Origin: Escherichia phage UPWr_E1
DNA length: 64,000 nucleotides
Reading direction: 5' to 3' (one strand)
Sequence record: PP418985.1
Part shown: piece by piece, positions 9,499 through 44,858 of the stretch
Position numbering within the stretch: position 1 is the first letter of the stretch
Layout of the letters: each line of letters opens with the position of its first letter
Notes under the pieces: model-generated
Database searches by the model: none
Told to the model about the DNA's origin: nothing
What the model saw: the letters and a program-made list of their open reading frames with translations, nothing else
Made by a program: the position numbers and the translations under genes

Positions 9499-11001
9499 TT
9501 AAATCTCGATTGTTTTCGTGGCATATTCGAATCGATCGGTGTTGTAAATTTTTATTCTTTCAAGCGCGTGTTTAAGAGCATAATTAAGGTGGCTAAACTG
9601 TTTCTTAGCATTCTTGCTCTTTGTCTTAACCGCCAAATGATCGATAAGATCCCAAACGGTAGCAATATCCTTAGAACCATGTTTACGCAATGCACGACCG
9701 ATACTCTGACGAACGATAGTTGATTCCTTCACTGGATGACCGAAAATAACATGATGCAAGTTCTTGATGGAAACACCAGTAGAGAACACACCATAAGACG
9801 CAACACAAATGATCCCTGTTTCCCCTTCCGCTAATTTCTTAAATTCATCACGTTCTTCTGTCTTAACTCCACCGTCAATATAATAAACCTTGTCGTGTAC
9901 CTTCTGCAACGCATCATACATAAGTTTTCCGTGCTTAGTATTGCGGAACATCAGGAATACGTTTTCGCCCTTCTTAGCGAGTTTTAGCGCCAAATTGCAA
10001 GCAAACTTATTTCGTCGTGGGTTAGACGTAATATACTTGATCTCTTCCGCATATTCTCTCCCCTTAACCGCGCTACATTCCTCATCGGTATAACGAAGGA
10101 AAAGACAGTTAATTTTCAGTTTTGTCACTTGGCCTTCTTCCATCAGGCGGTCAATACTCACGATCTTAGAAATATCACCGAAAAGCCCGACATACTGCAT
10201 CATGTTAGCTTTCCCGTCACGAGGGGAACCAGTCATGCCGATCTTAAATTGGCAATGATCCATATCAGTAACGATGTTTAGCAGGTTTTTAGCAGTGGCC
10301 TTGTGACATTCATCAACAATCACCATCCCGAATTGTTTAAACCATTCACGAGGTTGTTTACATGCTGATTGCCACGTACTAACAACGATCAGGCGATCTC
10401 CTACATTCTTAGTAGTACCACTCATGATAGTATGAATTGCCTCATAAGGAAACTGGCGATAATCAACAAAATCATCACGCATTTGCAGCACTAGCGACGT
10501 GGTAGGAACGATGATCAGCACTTTCCCTTCGTAGTTCTCTAAGTACCAGCGAGACAACATACAAGCAATCGCAGATTTACCAGCGGACGTAGGCAAAACT
10601 AACATACGGCGTTTATGATGAATACCTTCAAAGACAGCCTTTGATTGATACCAATGCGGGGTGATCCTGTTAGCACCGGAATATAATTCTAAGTCGTTAC
10701 ACCATTTTGTAATTTCTTCTTCTGTAACCTGTTCTTTCTCGAATAAGCGAGGGTCTACCCATACGCTATAGCCCATATTTTTAGCGAATATTCCCACGGT
10801 TTTAGTTAGGCCGATTGGCAACTTTCCATTGTAATCTAAAAGACGAATACGCCCATCCCATCCGCCGTATTTTACTCGTTTTTGAAACCGTGCACCTTCA
10901 ACTTCAAAGCTAAAATAATCCCTCATTTCTAATAAAATTGAATCGCTACATTCAATTTGAACATGGGAGTAGTTCAGAAAGTGAATTTTAATATCTTGCA
11001 T
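9499..11001 (-). CDS. uvsW: UvsW RNA-DNA and DNA-DNA helicase (SF2)
   Basis: Strong match to T4 UvsW (M-DIKIHF start, PTSAGKS Walker A, DECH box, VWDLIDH). ATG at 11001 chosen over the track's GTG at 11016 by alignment to T4. Confidence 0.9.
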   Translation of the reverse strand: MQDIKIHFLNYSHVQIECSDSILLEMRDYFSFEVEGARFQKRVKYGGWDGRIRLLDYNGKLPIGLTKTVGIFAKNMGYSVWVDPRLFEKEQVTEEEITKWCNDLELYSGANRITPHWYQSKAVFEGIHHKRRMLVLPTSAGKSAIACMLSRWYLENYEGKVLIIVPTTSLVLQMRDDFVDYRQFPYEAIHTIMSGTTKNVGDRLIVVSTWQSACKQPREWFKQFGMVIVDECHKATAKNLLNIVTDMDHCQFKIGMTGSPRDGKANMMQYVGLFGDISKIVSIDRLMEEGQVTKLKINCLFLRYTDEECSAVKGREYAEEIKYITSNPRRNKFACNLALKLAKKGENVFLMFRNTKHGKLMYDALQKVHDKVYYIDGGVKTEERDEFKKLAEGETGIICVASYGVFSTGVSIKNLHHVIFGHPVKESTIVRQSIGRALRKHGSKDIATVWDLIDHLAVKTKSKNAKKQFSHLNYALKHALERIKIYNTDRFEYATKTIEI

Positions 11002-39609: not shown

Positions 39610-41412
39610 TTAACCTACCCTTAACCAACGATGAACGGTGCGATATGGAGGAAGAATACCCATCATTGATGGGTCGGCATTCCCAGCATTAACTTTTACG
39701 ATATCTTCACGGTATTTTGTGAATGCTGGACCCGCTGCGTCTGGGTCAACTTGACAACCACCGATGATGATTGATCCGCTATCATCCTTCACCAAAACAC
39801 GATCAGTTGATTGTAATTCAGGAATCATATCTTTCTTGATTTGATATGCAACTTCACCACCATTACCGCCAGCAGTATGTGTTGGTTGCCCGTGAATATC
39901 AAGATCGTTATTGTTTAATGCAAAATTCTGATCGCTTGCGTCAGAAGACCAACCAGCTAAAAACTCACCTTCTGCATACCGAACCCAGATGCCAAACCCC
40001 ATATAGGTCGCTGGATTAGCTGGGTTATGTGCGTTTTCATATATCGTGCCGATCGGATGGAAAATATCAAACAGTGAATATATATCCATAATTCGACCTG
40101 AATACTCTTCTGCCGGACGAGTGTTTTTCTGGCTAGGATTCTGGAAGTCTGTATATTCAATCTGTTTTGTTAAATTAACTTCGTCTTCGTTATTGAGATA
40201 AATCTTGTCTGCTTTTTCTTTAATTCCGCCGACACCATCCCATTCTAATAGAGTTCCGATATCGTTATTAAACCAACGAATTGTTATAGTATCTCTATTG
40301 TCCAACGCTTTAGCTAATTTAATCCCTGTTACAATGCTATTCTCATCAAATACCAGTGAATAATCTTCTCCAGACTGTACCCACTGACCGCCAGCAAGTG
40401 CGCAACTCTCTTCGGTTTCTCCGTCAGCACCTTCACAGACAAACGAAGGAAGATCAGCATCACCAGCTTTAATCATTTGAGTACCATTTATTAATAACTC
40501 AAATGAATTTGGGTTAATTATATCACGTTTACTAACGCCCAAATCAGCGTTGGTAAATTCTTTTTTCTTCGATAAATCACCTACCCACACTTCACCAGGA
40601 ATAGTTTCGAGTGCTGTCATTCCGGTATCATACACTCTAATTGTGTGTGTGATATAACTAGATCGGAATGATGCAATTCCGTCCATATATGTAATAATTT
40701 GAACGGTGTCCCCAGCCGAACAAGGAAAACGAAGTTTTATGCTTTTGCCATCAAGTTCAACAAGTGATCCATCCTCACCAATTGAACCGTAGTTAGAGTC
40801 ATTACTAAAAGACTTGCCATAATATAAAAGGTTTCCTCGATAATATACTTCGACATTTCGAGTGTTATATGTGTTGGAACCAAATACATTAGGGAAATCT
40901 GTTTGCCCTTCTGTGGCAATATAAACTTCCTTAGCTACTGTGCTTAGATCAGACGTAGTAATAGTGTCAACACGCTTGTTTTCGATATATTCCCAGCGTC
41001 CAGGCGCACAATAAACCAATTCAACATCCATGAAATCTTTATACAATTCTCGGTCGATTGGTGATCCTTTAATTGTATCGCCTTGTGCTGGCTTAAGTGT
41101 TACGTTATGAGACGCCCACGAGCGCCAAACATCACGAAGTTTAATTGTCTTGTTATAATCACCAACTCCACCTTTAGGAAGCTCTACCGACACCGAGTTG
41201 TTTGTTGTATTGATAGCCCACGCATCACCAAAATTAGGCTTTAATAATGGCGCTGTATGCGTTTTCCATGCACCGGACGCGTGGGGGGTATCACCATCCC
41301 CCAGCTTAGTATAAAGTTCAGAAAAGTTGGCGTTGATCTTTTGACCGCCCTTTCTTAGATAATCACCCGTACCGTCATCTACAACGTTACCGATATTAAT
41401 TAATTGTTTCAT
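39610..41412 (-). CDS. 10: Baseplate wedge protein gp10
   Basis: 600 aa (T4 gp10 602 aa); synteny. Confidence 0.8.
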   Translation of the reverse strand: MKQLINIGNVVDDGTGDYLRKGGQKINANFSELYTKLGDGDTPHASGAWKTHTAPLLKPNFGDAWAINTTNNSVSVELPKGGVGDYNKTIKLRDVWRSWASHNVTLKPAQGDTIKGSPIDRELYKDFMDVELVYCAPGRWEYIENKRVDTITTSDLSTVAKEVYIATEGQTDFPNVFGSNTYNTRNVEVYYRGNLLYYGKSFSNDSNYGSIGEDGSLVELDGKSIKLRFPCSAGDTVQIITYMDGIASFRSSYITHTIRVYDTGMTALETIPGEVWVGDLSKKKEFTNADLGVSKRDIINPNSFELLINGTQMIKAGDADLPSFVCEGADGETEESCALAGGQWVQSGEDYSLVFDENSIVTGIKLAKALDNRDTITIRWFNNDIGTLLEWDGVGGIKEKADKIYLNNEDEVNLTKQIEYTDFQNPSQKNTRPAEEYSGRIMDIYSLFDIFHPIGTIYENAHNPANPATYMGFGIWVRYAEGEFLAGWSSDASDQNFALNNNDLDIHGQPTHTAGGNGGEVAYQIKKDMIPELQSTDRVLVKDDSGSIIIGGCQVDPDAAGPAFTKYREDIVKVNAGNADPSMMGILPPYRTVHRWLRVG

Positions 41413-42263
41413 GTAGCAACCCCGATTTTAATAGTGTCTGTGGCTTTAACTGCTAAACGAATATTTTCGCCAGTAGCCTTATACTCTGCATATACTTTAT
41501 CGCCGGAACCAATGAAATAACGAACCGTGTATAATTCGTCTTCTGTTTTCTGTAAAACCGCATATTCTGTCGCGTAAACTTTTCCGGCTCTGGCATCAAT
41601 CATCAATAGAGTTTCGCTTGAGCGCATTTTTGACCCCGCCGTATTGCTAGCGGTTGTTAATAGTTTAATTGATACATATTCTGTTTTTGCTGCAATAGCA
41701 ACGTTGGTTGCAACTCCAGTTACATTAACTGTCCTATCTAATGGTGTGGTTGTGTCGGTAAACATACTTTCTATACCCAGCCGCCAGGTAACTCTATTAC
41801 CTTCAACGGCAGTGCACCAGACGGTGACTTTTGAGAAAGGTTGTGTTATTGCTGCGTCACCGGAATACCCGCTAATAGAATCTCCTGCTTGAGTTCTAAT
41901 GTTTAGTGGTGTTGTTGCCGAAAAGCTACCGTTACTATTTATGAACACAACACCCTCACCAACTTTAGCTTTAGGAAGGATTGCTATTAATGCGCCTTGA
42001 GTTGTGTCAATATCATGCAGACTACCAATCTCTACCGCCGTTCCTACATAATTTTGTCGTGGGTGTTTCTGATAGTATCCAGTGGCATGAATAACCATTC
42101 GACCAGCACCATGATCAATCTCTTTTAGACGTTGGTCCGCAAATGCGTCATAGATCGAATCAAAGTTATCATTAATTTTAACGCCACCGTCATATAAGAT
42201 ATCACCAGTCGATGGATTGCCGACTGTACCTGTGTCTATTCTTTTCTTTGGAACTTGTGCCAT
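41409..42263 (-). CDS. 9: Baseplate wedge / long tail fibre socket protein gp9
   Basis: 284 aa (T4 gp9 288 aa); synteny; late promoter upstream. Confidence 0.75.
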   Translation of the reverse strand: MAQVPKKRIDTGTVGNPSTGDILYDGGVKINDNFDSIYDAFADQRLKEIDHGAGRMVIHATGYYQKHPRQNYVGTAVEIGSLHDIDTTQGALIAILPKAKVGEGVVFINSNGSFSATTPLNIRTQAGDSISGYSGDAAITQPFSKVTVWCTAVEGNRVTWRLGIESMFTDTTTPLDRTVNVTGVATNVAIAAKTEYVSIKLLTTASNTAGSKMRSSETLLMIDARAGKVYATEYAVLQKTEDELYTVRYFIGSGDKVYAEYKATGENIRLAVKATDTIKIGVAT

Positions 42264-42290: not shown

Positions 42291-42298
42291 TATTTATA
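42291..42298 (-). promoter_or_regulatory. T4-type late promoter (TATAAATA) for gene 9
   Basis: tatttata on plus strand, 28 nt upstream of the gene 9 ATG. Confidence 0.55.
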
Positions 42299-42307
42299 AA
42301 ATACATA

Positions 42308-42333
42308 CAAAAAAGCCGCCCACGAGGACGGCT
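42308..42333 (-). terminator. Rho-independent terminator closing the methyltransferase cassette
   Basis: Minus-strand GCCGUCC-UCGUG-GGGCGGC hairpin followed by UUUUUU, just after the methyltransferase stop codon. Confidence 0.6.
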
Positions 42334-42338
42334 TATAA

Positions 42339-43178
42339 TTAAATGTCAAACAAGTCTGAGAGCGTCCCAGACGCTGTTTCATGTTCCGGTAAGGTAATCT
42401 CCTTACTTTCTTCTATTTGTTCGTTAGGACGCGATTTAGGAGCTTCTGTGGCTTCTTTCTCGTAATACCGAACCTCAACCACTTCTGTTAAAACGTTGGT
42501 GCTGTGCCATTCATCGCGATAGATTGATGTATCGATACCACATCCGGCATAAGTCACTAAACCAGTTTGTTTGCTCCATTTTAGATATTTATTAGACTTC
42601 ACGGTCCCGTCATAATAAGGTCTGCCGGAATAGGCAAAACCAGCGGAACCCGAAGGAACAATAAAATAGCCAACATCGGCAAACTTCTGGCCTAATGTCA
42701 TAACCTTAAATTCAAACTCACCACCAGTATATTCAAATACATCCTTTGTGTCGGTAGTATTGATTTTCCCGAAAGGTGGATTGCTAATTACAACATCGAA
42801 TTTTTCGTTTGACTCAAATTCGAATACATCGCTTGTGATCCATTCTGCTTCCGGTAATAGTCGTTTACCGATCCGCGCAAATTCTGGATTGAGTTCGACG
42901 CATACGATCTTTTCTGGCTTACAACGATGTAACATACAAAAAGATAAACGACCGATCCCAGCACAAAGATCCAATACTTTTCCGGTACAGTGTGCATCAA
43001 TGGTAAAATCCCAGGCAAGACCTTCTGGTGTAAAGAATGCACCTGAACCGCCTAGACCATCGCCCTGATAGTTGTTATAGCAAAATTCTTTTTCTTCATA
43101 TGTCAATGGACGATCTGAATTAATCAACTCCATTGCTCGGTCGTGTAATTTTTGTTCTTGTTTAGAAAGTCGTGCCAT
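42339..43178 (-). CDS. SAM-dependent methyltransferase, probable N6-adenine (or N4-cytosine) DNA methyltransferase
   Basis: Motif I VLDLCAGIGRLSF and motif IV NPPFGK (the (D/N)PP(F/Y) amino-methyltransferase signature); 279 aa; no counterpart between genes 8 and 9 in T4. Confidence 0.7.
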   Translation of the reverse strand: MARLSKQEQKLHDRAMELINSDRPLTYEEKEFCYNNYQGDGLGGSGAFFTPEGLAWDFTIDAHCTGKVLDLCAGIGRLSFCMLHRCKPEKIVCVELNPEFARIGKRLLPEAEWITSDVFEFESNEKFDVVISNPPFGKINTTDTKDVFEYTGGEFEFKVMTLGQKFADVGYFIVPSGSAGFAYSGRPYYDGTVKSNKYLKWSKQTGLVTYAGCGIDTSIYRDEWHSTNVLTEVVEVRYYEKEATEAPKSRPNEQIEESKEITLPEHETASGTLSDLFDI

Positions 43179-43507
43179 TATTTAACCTTTGCAGTGACGG
43201 TAACGCTATGCCCCAAATAAACATGAGACATAAAGAACACAAAGTTTTTAAATTGCGGATTCTTTCGAATAAACCGTTTCAATTTTCGAATACAAGTAAT
43301 GTTATGGTCATAATTAGAGTAATTAAATTTGATACCCTGTTCCATCATCGCATTAACTTCATCTTGAGAATGCCACTTCTTATCATGGTCACAAAACCAA
43401 TAGTTATCATGCCATTTTTCTTGAAGATGCAAGCCCCAAAACACTTTATGCATTGGATGTTTTGGTTTACCCATTGTGTAATGCAGTTTAATATTTACGC
43501 GTGCCAT
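43178..43507 (-). CDS. Hypothetical His/Trp-rich protein (109 aa)
   Basis: Translationally coupled (overlapping start/stop) within the methyltransferase cassette. Confidence 0.5.
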   Translation of the reverse strand: MARVNIKLHYTMGKPKHPMHKVFWGLHLQEKWHDNYWFCDHDKKWHSQDEVNAMMEQGIKFNYSNYDHNITCIRKLKRFIRKNPQFKNFVFFMSHVYLGHSVTVTAKVK

Positions 43508-43752
43508 TTTCTATCACTCCACATACCGAAAGTTGGATTATACACAAAATGTATAGCTTCATCAATAGTCTTGAATCGTTTGGTTACGTTAGCGCAATTA
43601 ATACCCTCCCATAGTTCATCGGTGTAATCGGATAGTGATGAATGAGTATGATCGATGATCTCTCCGATCTTTTCACCGTTCGCGATCACATCCCAACCGC
43701 AAGGGGATACCTGAATTGCTTCACAATTATCTGTAAATTTACGACGTGCCAT
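43495..43752 (-). CDS. Hypothetical protein (85 aa), first gene of the methyltransferase cassette
   Basis: ATG with GGAGG Shine-Dalgarno, directly downstream of a consensus sigma70 promoter. Confidence 0.5.
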   Translation of the reverse strand: MARRKFTDNCEAIQVSPCGWDVIANGEKIGEIIDHTHSSLSDYTDELWEGINCANVTKRFKTIDEAIHFVYNPTFGMWSDRKWHA

Positions 43753-43781
43753 AATTTATCCTCCGTTGTTTAGATGTGAGC

Positions 43782-43809
43782 ATTATACCTTACCTGACAA
43801 GATTGTCAA
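43782..43809 (-). promoter_or_regulatory. Consensus sigma70-type promoter driving the methyltransferase cassette
   Basis: Minus-strand TTGACA, 16-nt spacer, TATAAT; about 30 nt upstream of the 85-aa ORF. Confidence 0.7.
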
Positions 43810-43821
43810 CACCCAAAATGT

Positions 43822-43848
43822 AAAAAGCCAACTCTCTCGAATTGGCTT
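43822..43848 (-). terminator. Rho-independent terminator downstream of gene 8
   Basis: Minus-strand AAGCCAA-loop-TTGGCTT hairpin followed by a U-run. Confidence 0.6.
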
Positions 43849-43862
43849 TTAAAATCATACAC

Positions 43863-44858
43863 TTAGAACTCAAACAATACAGAAACAAGTTCTGTTTGAT
43901 CTAATGACCGAACGATAGGTTGTCGGTTTTCCATATAGATCATTTCGCCTGAGTGCGGCTCTAAGTCTTGCGGACGGTACTTATCTTTAACCGCTTTAAC
44001 GTCTGGATCGCTAGGGCGTGCTTTCTTTTCCAATGGGTTAAGGATAATGCTTAACTGACGGAAACCAGTATTACCCACTAACGCGGAAGTTGGGAATTGC
44101 GCAGAGTCCATATAAGCCTGAAAACGCAAAGTTACTACTTTCAGCCGATAAAGCAGATTATAGTCATTATACCAGGTGATCACATTGTCATAGCCCCAAC
44201 GCGCCGGATCTTGTCTCAATTCATCCGGGAATGGAACAACAATATGTTCATTGGTGCAACGGTTGATCGCCGCATCAGGCGGAATTGTGTACAGGTATTC
44301 CCAACGATATCCATCACCCATATCAATAGAATCGCCCTTTCCTACAGGTGGCGCAATTGATTCATGGGTAGGTGTCCACTTTCCTCCCAACTTCAAACAC
44401 TCTACTTTAGCGTCAATGCTTGAAATAGAGCAGTAACCGCGATCAGGAACATCTGTTACACGGTAAACCATCCAGCCGCTACCAACATCTGTACGGTTAT
44501 ATGGTGCTGAGTTTACGACAACAATGTCATTGATAAAGAACGTGCGCGGGTTATCCTGTCCGGTATCACCCCAATCTTTACGAGGGATAACCGCATCAAG
44601 AAGTGATTTGTTAATCTTAACCGCCCCCATCATATGGGTCCACATGTCAACAACACCAGCCGTTGAATCGGTCGGATAAGGTGGGGCAAAGCCCACCTCT
44701 TTTTCGTTTTCTGACCACGGCTCCGAACGTCCAAACGTTCCATAAATTGTAATTTGATTTGCTCCATCGCCTACAGAATTATAGAAGTTCAGAAGTTTTT
44801 CTGTTCTGAATTTGCTAGTAATGATTGAGCGATAGATCACACTATTTTCATTAGCCAT
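43863..44858 (-). CDS. 8: Baseplate wedge protein gp8
   Basis: 331 aa (T4 gp8 334 aa); synteny 7-8. Confidence 0.75.
   Translation of the reverse strand: MANENSVIYRSIITSKFRTEKLLNFYNSVGDGANQITIYGTFGRSEPWSENEKEVGFAPPYPTDSTAGVVDMWTHMMGAVKINKSLLDAVIPRKDWGDTGQDNPRTFFINDIVVVNSAPYNRTDVGSGWMVYRVTDVPDRGYCSISSIDAKVECLKLGGKWTPTHESIAPPVGKGDSIDMGDGYRWEYLYTIPPDAAINRCTNEHIVVPFPDELRQDPARWGYDNVITWYNDYNLLYRLKVVTLRFQAYMDSAQFPTSALVGNTGFRQLSIILNPLEKKARPSDPDVKAVKDKYRPQDLEPHSGEMIYMENRQPIVRSLDQTELVSVLFEF

What the first reader, a model, noticed from the sequence alone, without database searches (positions are those of the whole stretch)
42291..43850. Self-contained methyltransferase cassette with its own sigma70 promoter and terminators inside the baseplate operon (between genes 8 and 9)
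Three coupled genes (85 aa, 109 aa His/Trp-rich, 279-aa methyltransferase with VLDLCAGIGRLSF and NPPFGK motifs) sit between genes 8 and 9, which are adjacent in T4. The unit is insulated: terminator after gene 8, near-consensus TTGACA-16-TATAAT promoter, terminator right after the methyltransferase stop, then a new late promoter for gene 9. This is the architecture of an acquired early-expressed cassette; a DNA amino-methyltransferase here would plausibly act in anti-restriction, and the two small proteins are uncharacterised partners.
Basis: partly seen in the sequence, partly recalled or inferred. Interest (0 to 1): 0.8.

Follow-up and report, generated by a model that had tools for sequence, protein, structure and literature searches.

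The report
Clamp-tethered phage DNA methyltransferase cassette
Between two baseplate genes of an RB49-like coliphage sits an already-annotated early gene cassette whose methyltransferase ends in the same short tail that the phage's DNA polymerase uses to hold the sliding clamp, so it probably methylates phage DNA as it is replicated.

Summary
The window is a Krischvirus (RB49-like) genome. On the minus strand, between gene 8 and gene 9, lie a terminator, a perfect TTGACA-16-TATAAT promoter, three coupled ORFs (85, 109 and 279 aa), a second terminator and a late promoter TATAAATA. This cassette is already annotated in GEC-3S and RB49 and is present in all 58 Krischvirus records, so it is not new.

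What appears new is the enzyme's anatomy. A gamma-class N6-amino-methyltransferase core (GAFFTP, CAGIG, NPPF) is followed by a disordered linker and the C-terminus TLSDLFDI. The phage's own DNA polymerase gp43 ends in SLTDLFDI, the tail type shown in T4 and RB69 to bind the gp45 sliding clamp. Plasmid homologues instead end in the bacterial beta-clamp motif: 51 of 120 have strict QL.LF and 38 more have Q-variants, against 0 of 1203 control ORFs. Enterobacterial chromosomal copies have no tail.

I conclude it is an early-expressed, clamp-tethered, replication-coupled DNA adenine methyltransferase. An anti-restriction role is plausible but untested, and its target motif is unknown.

The two small ORFs are a separate module. 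They also occur as a pair in Vequintavirus without the methyltransferase, and they are absent or replaced in related metagenomic phages. I found no paper describing the clamp tail.

The parts
43863..44858 (-). gene 8 (baseplate wedge subunit), upstream late gene
   Evidence: ORF of 331 aa. Annotated gp8 in RB49 and GEC-3S.
43823..43850 (-). intrinsic terminator T1 after gene 8
   Evidence: 12-bp stem followed by a T run. Folding energy -15.1 kcal/mol. Annotated as a terminator in GEC-3S and G2248.
43782..43809 (-). sigma70-type early promoter, TTGACA-16-TATAAT
   Evidence: 12/12 consensus match. Annotated as a promoter in GEC-3S. An equivalent TTGACA promoter sits in the same place in metagenomic relatives L015 and L018.
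43495..43752 (-). 85-aa ORF (phrog_16603), function unknown; first gene of the cassette, SD GGAGG at 43760-43764
   Evidence: Found only in Krischvirus and some Vequintavirus.
43178..43507 (-). 109-aa His/Trp-rich ORF (phrog_12630), function unknown; overlaps the 85-aa ORF by 13 nt
   Evidence: Only 5 clusters among 5.8 billion proteins. Two alleles exist within Krischvirus, and the ORF is paired with the 85-aa ORF in Vequintavirus FV3. The AF2 model is unusable, pLDDT 52.6.
42444..43178 (-). methyltransferase catalytic core (aa 1-245): motif X GAFFTP 43026-43043, motif I 42939-42977, motif IV NPPFGK 42765-42782
42366..42443 (-). disordered acidic/Pro-rich linker (aa 246-271)
   Evidence: pLDDT below 50. 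The sequence cannot be aligned between homologues, whereas the terminal motif is conserved.
42342..42365 (-). C-terminal motif TLSDLFDI, predicted gp45 sliding-clamp-binding tail
   Evidence: Krischvirus gp43 ends in SLTDLFDI in RB49, SSG23 and Makalu_003. The strict pattern occurs only in gp43 and this protein across about 146 kb of six-frame ORFs. The last 18 nt are 17/18 identical to the 3' end of gene 43.
42313..42334 (-). intrinsic terminator T2, directly after the methyltransferase stop codon
   Evidence: Folding energy -15.4 kcal/mol. Annotated in GEC-3S and G2248.
42291..42298 (-). T4-type late promoter TATAAATA that restarts late transcription for gene 9
   Evidence: The only occurrence on this strand in 38-48 kb. 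Conserved in L015 and L018.
41409..42263 (-). gene 9 (baseplate wedge tail fibre connector), downstream late gene

Best explanation
The cassette is an early transcription unit embedded in the late baseplate operon. The host sigma70 RNA polymerase reads it from the TTGACA-16-TATAAT promoter before replication starts. Terminators on both sides insulate it, and a late promoter restarts gene 9.

Its conserved gene encodes a SAM-dependent, gamma-class amino-methyltransferase, most likely making N6-methyladenine in DNA. The enzyme has three parts: a catalytic core, a flexible linker, and a C-terminal peptide (TLSDLFDI) that copies the clamp-binding tail of the phage's own DNA polymerase (SLTDLFDI).

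Proposed mechanism: the tail docks into the hydrophobic pocket of gp45 clamps loaded on replicating phage DNA. The enzyme then rides on, or is concentrated at, newly made duplex and methylates it as fast as it is produced. The likely benefit is marking or protecting progeny DNA of a phage that has ordinary cytosine, for example against restriction in the next host.

Shown here: the anatomy, its conservation, the identity of the tail to the gp43 tail, and the family-wide switch of tail type with clamp type.
Inferred: physical binding to gp45, DNA adenine as the substrate, and early timing.
Speculative: anti-restriction as the selective benefit, and the target sequence, which is unknown.

The 85-aa and 109-aa ORFs are co-transcribed passengers of unknown function, not obligate partners.
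For: 1. Tail identity. gp43 ends in ...KVASLTDLFDI in RB49, SSG23 and Makalu_003, and the methyltransferase ends in ...SGTLSDLFDI in the window, GEC-3S, RB49 and G2248. The strict pattern is found only in these two proteins in about 146 kb of Krischvirus six-frame ORFs.

2. Published basis for the tail's role. The T4 gp43 C-terminus EKASLDFLFG and the RB69 polymerase C-terminal peptide bind gp45. The hydrophobic-acidic C-termini of gp43, gp55 and gp33 are interchangeable and sit on flexible linkers (PMC2988020). The gp45-binding loop of T4 ligase was discovered precisely through its similarity to the polymerase tail and then confirmed by ITC and a crystal structure (PMC6212786).

3. The behaviour of a short linear motif. 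AF2 gives pLDDT below 50 for aa 246-279. Homologues only 62-70% identical keep TLTDLFDI, SLSMFDI or TLDFVDFSEI while their linkers cannot be aligned.

4. Tail type follows clamp type. Plasmid homologues end in QLSLFDAA, QLDLFAMAA or QQLALF. Of the 120 best non-enteric cluster representatives, 51 have strict QL.LF in the last 12 aa and 38 more have Q-variants. The control gives 0 of 1203 other ORFs. QL(S/D)LF is the beta-clamp motif (PMC9690074).

6. Early, insulated architecture. It is conserved in GEC-3S and in metagenomic relatives.
Against: - No binding or methylation experiment exists, and I could not model the gp45-peptide complex.
- In RB43 and KP15 the methyltransferase tail (LFTFTIE) resembles the local polymerase tail (SLNDLFGDW) only loosely.
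- Aeromonas phage 65 and the enterobacterial chromosomal copies work without any tail.
- RB49 already has a dam gene, so a second adenine methyltransferase is not obviously needed.
- The promoter is a consensus match only. No transcript data were found.
Confidence: 0.66

Rival explanations
1. It is an RNA or protein methyltransferase (RsmC, PrmC or METTL5-like) that modifies the host translation machinery, as several GenBank records annotate it ('release factor glutamine methyltransferase', 'similar to rRNA guanine-N2-methyltransferase').
Against: The NCBIfam scores are far below the cut-offs: 37.5 against 199 for PrmC and 29 against 295 for RsmC. DNA MTase profiles score higher, with mad2 at 58.8 bits. 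A sliding-clamp tail of the replicon's own type has no role for an RNA or protein enzyme. One homologue is fused to a DNA-methylase domain, and in RB43 and KP15 the gene sits in the replication cluster.
Confidence: 0.1
2. It is a freely diffusing orphan DNA methyltransferase like T4 Dam. The resemblance of its C-terminus to the gp43 tail is a by-product of local recombination and has no function.
For: The last 18 nt are 17/18 identical to the 3' end of gene 43, with divergence upstream, which suggests a copied segment. Tail-less homologues exist.
Against: The tail motif persists in homologues only 62-70% identical while their linkers diverge completely. Independent lineages on plasmids carry the beta-clamp motif at the same position, against 0 of 1203 control ORFs. 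A neutral by-product would not track the clamp type.
Confidence: 0.13
3. The tail binds the host beta clamp (DnaN) rather than phage gp45, either to methylate host DNA or to interfere with host replication.
For: TLSDLFD resembles the plasmid tails QLSLFD. The family's ancestral tail appears to be the beta-clamp type.
Against: The motif lacks the Q and has an extra residue relative to QL[SD]LF. It matches the phage polymerase tail in 6 of 8 positions, with the other two S/T swaps, and that polymerase works with gp45.
Confidence: 0.07
4. The main role of the protein is regulatory occupancy of gp45, competing with polymerase or with gp33/gp55 to time replication or late transcription. Methylation would then be secondary or lost.
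For: gp45 sites are shared by gp43, gp33, gp55 and ligase.
Against: All catalytic motifs are invariant across the family: FFTP, CAGIG and N-P-x-F-G. The same architecture on plasmids, whose replication depends on the host clamp, argues for productive tethering rather than inhibition.
Confidence: 0.04

Closest known systems
T4 DNA ligase gp30 / gp43 / gp33 / gp55 as gp45 clamp clients
   Same: A short hydrophobic-acidic peptide, similar to the polymerase C-terminus and carried on a flexible segment, tethers an enzyme to the gp45 clamp (PMC6212786; PMC2988020).
   Different: No methyltransferase is among the gp45 clients described in the papers read here. Binding has not been shown for this protein. 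The ligase motif is internal, whereas this one is C-terminal as in gp43.
Eukaryotic DNMT1-PCNA
   Same: A DNA methyltransferase carries a clamp-binding motif, so that methylation follows the replication fork (PMC9690074).
   Different: DNMT1 is an m5C maintenance enzyme with a PIP box and a different fold class. This one is a small gamma-class amino-methyltransferase of mobile elements, and the two are not homologous.
T4 Dam and other phage orphan adenine methyltransferases
   Same: A phage-encoded DNA methyltransferase with no restriction partner, present in a T4-like phage.
   Different: RB49 carries a separate dam gene. The Pfam scan of this protein listed no Dam-type family. Its specificity is unknown, and no clamp tail on Dam is mentioned in the papers read here.
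M.EcoGIX / M.BceJIII plasmid replication-associated methyltransferases
   Same: Orphan adenine methyltransferases of mobile elements whose activity is linked to replication mode and to anti-defence (PMC7736820).
   Different: Those are beta-class DPPY enzymes acting on single strands, from the leading regions of IncI and IncF plasmids. No enterobacterial plasmid matched the protein here, and no clamp motif is mentioned for them.
MAD2 methyltransferase of the MADS defence system and gamma-class type II/I DNA MTases (TaqI, HsdM, MmeI, BseCI)
   Same: The best profile and structural neighbours. They share the motif order X-I-IV, with FxTP and NPP[FY].
   Different: Only about 95 residues align to mad2. 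This protein has no large target-recognition domain, no specificity subunit and no nuclease partner.

Membership tests
Gamma-class N6-adenine (amino) DNA methyltransferases | Motif order X (FxTP), then I (FxGxG-like), then IV ((D/N/S)PP(Y/F/W)), on a Rossmann fold | tested here: met
Gamma-class N6-adenine (amino) DNA methyltransferases | Demonstrated transfer of methyl to adenine N6 in DNA at a defined sequence | not testable with these tools
   No methylome or biochemical data were found.
Gamma-class N6-adenine (amino) DNA methyltransferases | A target-recognition domain following the catalytic domain | tested here: inconclusive
   Only a small conserved C-terminal subdomain is present (aa ~150-245; invariant Y150, G152, E156, K158, S184, K197, D216, W224). 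It has no detectable similarity to known recognition domains.
Pfam MTS / RsmC-PrmC-type RNA or protein methyltransferases | Score above the curated family or equivalog cut-off over the full domain | tested here: not met
   MTS passes its domain cut-off (38.6 against 23) but only over aa 60-143. The NCBIfam equivalogs fail by a wide margin: PrmC 37.5 against 199.1, RsmC 29.2 against 295.
gp45 sliding-clamp clients of T4-like phages | A terminal hydrophobic-acidic peptide like that of the phage's own gp43 | tested here: met
   TLSDLFDI against gp43 SLTDLFDI in three Krischvirus genomes. The pattern is unique to these two proteins.
gp45 sliding-clamp clients of T4-like phages | The motif is carried on a flexible, poorly conserved linker | tested here: met
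   pLDDT below 50 for aa 246-279. The linkers cannot be aligned between homologues.
gp45 sliding-clamp clients of T4-like phages | Physical binding to gp45 | not testable with these tools
Bacterial beta-clamp-binding proteins (QL[SD]LF) | The pentapeptide QL[SD]LF or a close variant at a terminus | tested here: not met
   The window protein has TLSDLF, with no Q and one extra residue. The feature is met in plasmid homologues instead: 51 of 120 strict and 38 of 120 variants, against 0 of 1203 controls.
Restriction-modification systems | An adjacent cognate restriction endonuclease or specificity subunit | tested here: not met
   The gene is flanked by baseplate genes 8 and 9 and by two small ORFs that have no PADLOC, Pfam or NCBIfam hit.
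Dam-type methyltransferases | Match to the Dam family, or orthology with the phage dam gene | tested here: not met
   No Dam-family hit appears in Pfam. RB49 has a separate dam gene at 39922-40734. tblastn finds only one place per Krischvirus genome.

The most novel reading that the evidence does not exclude
This protein belongs to a large, previously unrecognised family of mobile-element DNA methyltransferases that are physically tethered to the sliding clamp of whichever replisome copies the element: gp45 in T4-like phages and the beta clamp on plasmids. That would make it a prokaryotic and viral counterpart of DNMT1-PCNA. In cytosine-containing T4-like phages such as Krischvirus, replication-coupled methylation could be the mark that protects progeny DNA, or distinguishes it from host DNA, in place of hydroxymethylcytosine.
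Probability: 0.55. Interest if true: 0.8.

Novelty: new variant of a known kind. Interest (0 to 1): 0.62.

Why it matters
Phage and plasmid orphan methyltransferases are common, but it is rarely considered how they keep pace with very fast replication. A clamp-binding tail that switches between the gp45 type and the beta-clamp type according to the replicon gives a concrete mechanism that can be tested directly. It adds a methyltransferase to the clamp 'tool-belt' of bacteria and phages. It corrects misleading database names for this protein, such as PrmC and rRNA methylase. It also flags a family of at least several hundred proteins (807 at E<=1e-10) on clinically relevant Pseudomonas megaplasmids and on therapeutic-candidate coliphages. 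For phage therapy and phage engineering, the tail and the enzyme are candidate determinants of host range on restriction-proficient strains.

Tried and rejected
- **Exhaustive representative search.** I used a profile search with the search for homologous proteins instead.
- **afdb50 fold library.** It was not installed. The BFVD search added only the Dickeya homologue and generic DNA methylases.
- **PDB sequence and profile searches.** These gave only weak, non-discriminating hits, and Foldseek against PDB was generic.
- **109-aa protein.** The AF2 model had pLDDT 52.6, so I ran no fold search on it.
- **Citrobacter freundii chromosomal homologue.** Its context is an island of unknown ORFs plus an HNH gene and IS elements. 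It gave no evidence of an RM partner.
- **M.EcoGIX family membership.** Considered and rejected: that family is beta-class DPPY, and no enterobacterial plasmids matched.
- **Cytosine modifications in Krischvirus SAP.** I considered a link to the unexplained modifications reported for this phage (PMC13390438). Nothing connects them: that paper's text never mentions adenine or methyladenine.
- **Compositional evidence for recent acquisition.** None was found.
- **Literature searches.** I found no paper on this enzyme's specificity or on clamp-binding methyltransferases in phages or plasmids.
Full report
**What the window is**

The region matches 58 Krischvirus (RB49-like, Straboviridae) genomes at 92-96% nucleotide identity over its full length. 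All the genes concerned lie on the minus strand: gp7, gp8, three extra ORFs, gp9 and gp10. In T4, genes 8 and 9 are adjacent with a 63-nt gap, so the three ORFs are an insertion relative to T4.

**Checking the observation**

- After the gp8 stop codon comes a 12-bp-stem terminator at 43823-43850 (-15.1 kcal/mol).
- Next is TTGACA-16-TATAAT at 43782-43809, the only 12/12 match in 41-45.5 kb, followed by SD GGAGG.
- The ORFs follow: 85 aa at 43495-43752; 109 aa at 43178-43507, overlapping the first by 13 nt; and 279 aa at 42339-43178, whose ATG overlaps the upstream TAA.
- Directly after the last stop codon is a second terminator at 42313-42334 (-15.4 kcal/mol).
- TATAAATA lies at 42291-42298, the only such late promoter on that strand in 38-48 kb, and gp9 follows.

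This is not a discovery in itself. GEC-3S annotates the same promoter and both terminators, and RB49 lists the ORFs as ORF140w-143w.

The architecture is evolutionarily stable. Two metagenomic relatives (gp8 81-88% identical, methyltransferase only 62-63% identical) have the same order: terminator, TTGACA promoter, methyltransferase, terminator, TATAAATA, gp9. The GC content of the cassette (39.2%) matches the window (40.8%), so nothing points to a recent acquisition.

**The two small ORFs are a separate module**

- The 85-aa and 109-aa proteins match no Pfam, NCBIfam or PADLOC model. They hit only PHROG families of unknown function.
- They occur together, at about 69% identity, among early genes of Vequintavirus phages such as FV3. 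FV3 has no methyltransferase beside them, and no Vequintavirus appeared among the listed methyltransferase matches.
- In the metagenomic relatives the methyltransferase is preceded by nothing (L015) or by an unrelated 154-aa ORF (L018).
- The 109-aa gene has two alleles within Krischvirus (95% or more, and 72.7%) and only five clusters in 5.8 billion proteins.
- Its AF2 model was too poor to use.

They are therefore co-transcribed passengers, not dedicated partners of the enzyme.

**The methyltransferase core**

The protein carries GAFFTP (motif X), CAGIG (motif I) and NPPF (motif IV), in the order typical of gamma-class amino-methyltransferases. These residues are invariant in two alignments that span phages, chromosomes and plasmids.

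General libraries are ambiguous.
- Pfam gives MTS at 1e-9 and Eco57I at 2e-6.
- The NCBIfam hits to PrmC and RsmC fall far below their cut-offs.
- PDB sequence hits are weak.

Three further results point to DNA as the substrate.
- Against defence-system models, the best hit is the MAD2 DNA methyltransferase (1.1e-16, aa 44-139), followed by several type II DNA MTase models.
- The Dickeya phage JA13 homologue is fused to an N6_N4_Mtase DNA-methylase fragment and sits next to another adenine methylase.
- In RB43 and KP15 the gene lies in the replication cluster, between helicase 41 and primase 61.

**The tail**

Phage copies extend beyond the roughly 238-aa core by a linker and a conserved terminus that the enterobacterial chromosomal homologues lack. 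In the window the protein ends in ...ETASGTLSDLFDI.

- RB49 DNA polymerase gp43 ends in ...EKVASLTDLFDI. SSG23, among the closest relatives of the window, and Makalu_003, the most divergent, have the same gp43 ending.
- A strict pattern for this tail occurs in only these two proteins across about 146 kb of Krischvirus six-frame ORFs.
- The last 18 nt of the two genes are 17/18 identical and diverge upstream. This hints that the tail was captured from gene 43.
- AF2 predicts residues 246-279 to be disordered.
- Homologues 62-70% identical keep TLTDLFDI, SLSMFDI or TLDFVDFSEI, while their linkers cannot be aligned.

The published background gives this meaning. The T4 gp43 C-terminus EKASLDFLFG and the RB69 polymerase C-terminal peptide bind the gp45 clamp. 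The hydrophobic-acidic C-termini of gp43, gp55 and gp33 are interchangeable and sit on flexible linkers (PMC2988020). The gp45-binding loop of T4 ligase was found by exactly this kind of similarity and then confirmed by ITC and a crystal structure (PMC6212786).

**Tail type follows clamp type across the family**

The family also occurs on 187 plasmids.
- Pseudomonas megaplasmid copies have a long Ala/Pro-rich linker and end in ...FAQLSLFDAA.
- A Paraburkholderia plasmid copy ends in QLDLFAMAA.
- An Agrobacterium plasmid copy ends in QQLALF.

QL(S/D)LF is the bacterial beta-clamp-binding motif (PMC9690074; Hda).

A profile search from eight plasmid members returned 807 proteins at E<=1e-10. I examined the 120 best cluster representatives.
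- 51 have strict QL.LF within the last 12 residues.
- 38 have Q-variants such as EQLALL, QPSLFGDAA and QMDLF.
- Many of the remaining 31 have Streptomyces-type QL[AST]FD or TLFDLL endings.

As a control, I checked all 1207 ORFs of at least 80 aa in every locus held. Four carry QL.LF near the C-terminus, and all four are members of this family.

So a C-terminal clamp-binding motif is a family trait, and T4-like phages have exchanged it for the motif of their own clamp. The RB43 and KP15 tails (LFTFTIE) are hydrophobic but resemble the local polymerase tail (SLNDLFGDW) only loosely. Aeromonas phage 65 has no tail. The inference is therefore strongest for Krischvirus and for the plasmids.

**Proposed mechanism**

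Host RNA polymerase transcribes the cassette early. The enzyme accumulates before replication begins. Its tail then docks on gp45 clamps loaded on replicating DNA, or left behind on it. This concentrates methylation on nascent phage DNA.

Krischvirus DNA is cut by enzymes sensitive to cytosine modification, which is consistent with unmodified cytosine (PMC4041780). Base methylation could therefore protect or mark progeny DNA. RB49 also carries dam and a third gene annotated as a methyltransferase. The target sequence and the selective benefit remain unknown.

**Novelty**

The cassette and its regulatory signals are already annotated. I found no paper describing the clamp tail of this enzyme, or of any phage or plasmid methyltransferase. 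M.EcoGIX-type replication-associated methyltransferases belong to a different, beta-class family. The closest functional analogue is eukaryotic DNMT1-PCNA.

I rate this a new variant of a known kind. Confidence that the enzyme acts on DNA is good, and confidence that it binds the clamp is moderate to good. No experiment supports either yet.

Noticed in passing
window 42339-42356 compared with L008 794-811 (RB49 gene 43 3' end): The last 18 nt of the methyltransferase gene and of gene 43 are 17/18 identical (GACTTGTTTGACATTTAA against GACCTGTTTGACATTTAA), while the sequence upstream diverges. This suggests the clamp tail was copied between the two genes by short-patch recombination.
   Followed up: partly
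L014 1791-2507 (RB49 115890-116606) and L008 24923-25735 (RB49 dam): RB49 carries two further genes annotated as DNA methyltransferases. One is dam. The other is RB49p189 (238 aa), which has no Pfam hit and is not a detectable paralogue of the cassette enzyme.
   Followed up: partly
L014 10027-11523 (RB49 gene 30 ligase), residues ~184-202: RB49 DNA ligase has an internal GLDDLFAV segment. It resembles both the Krischvirus gp43 tail and the gp45-binding loop EPEGLDFLFD of T4 ligase, so it may be the equivalent clamp-binding site.
   Followed up: no
L004-L007 (Citrobacter freundii chromosome), gene at 10001-10717: A tail-less homologue (54% identical, seen on 887 contigs) sits at the edge of a roughly 10-kb island of unknown small ORFs, an HNH nuclease and IS elements, next to bssR/yliI/gstB/dacC. 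The function of the island is unknown.
   Followed up: partly
L013 1501-2670 (Dickeya phage JA13): This homologue is 389 aa. The core is fused to a degenerate N6_N4_Mtase (beta-class DNA methylase) fragment, and another putative DNA adenine methylase gene follows two genes downstream.
   Followed up: partly
window 43178-43507: The 109-aa gene exists as two alleles within Krischvirus (95% or more, and 72.7% identical). The window's allele is about as close to the Vequintavirus copies (~70%) as to the other Krischvirus allele. This indicates mosaic exchange within the cassette. It also has the lowest GC of the cassette genes (34.2%).
   Followed up: partly
literature: PMC13390438 (Krischvirus SAP versus TB34): Two Krischvirus phages 99.96% identical differ completely in cytosine modification, and no pathway genes have been identified. 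Nothing found here links this to the cassette, which both phages carry.
   Followed up: no
L009 and L011 (RB43, KP15): In RB43 and KP15 the methyltransferase tail is LFTFTIE or FTFRIE, unlike the local gp43 (SLNDLFGDW), gp33 (TLDGFM) and gp55 (TLEDFL) tails. Whether this variant binds gp45 at the same site is open.
   Followed up: partly
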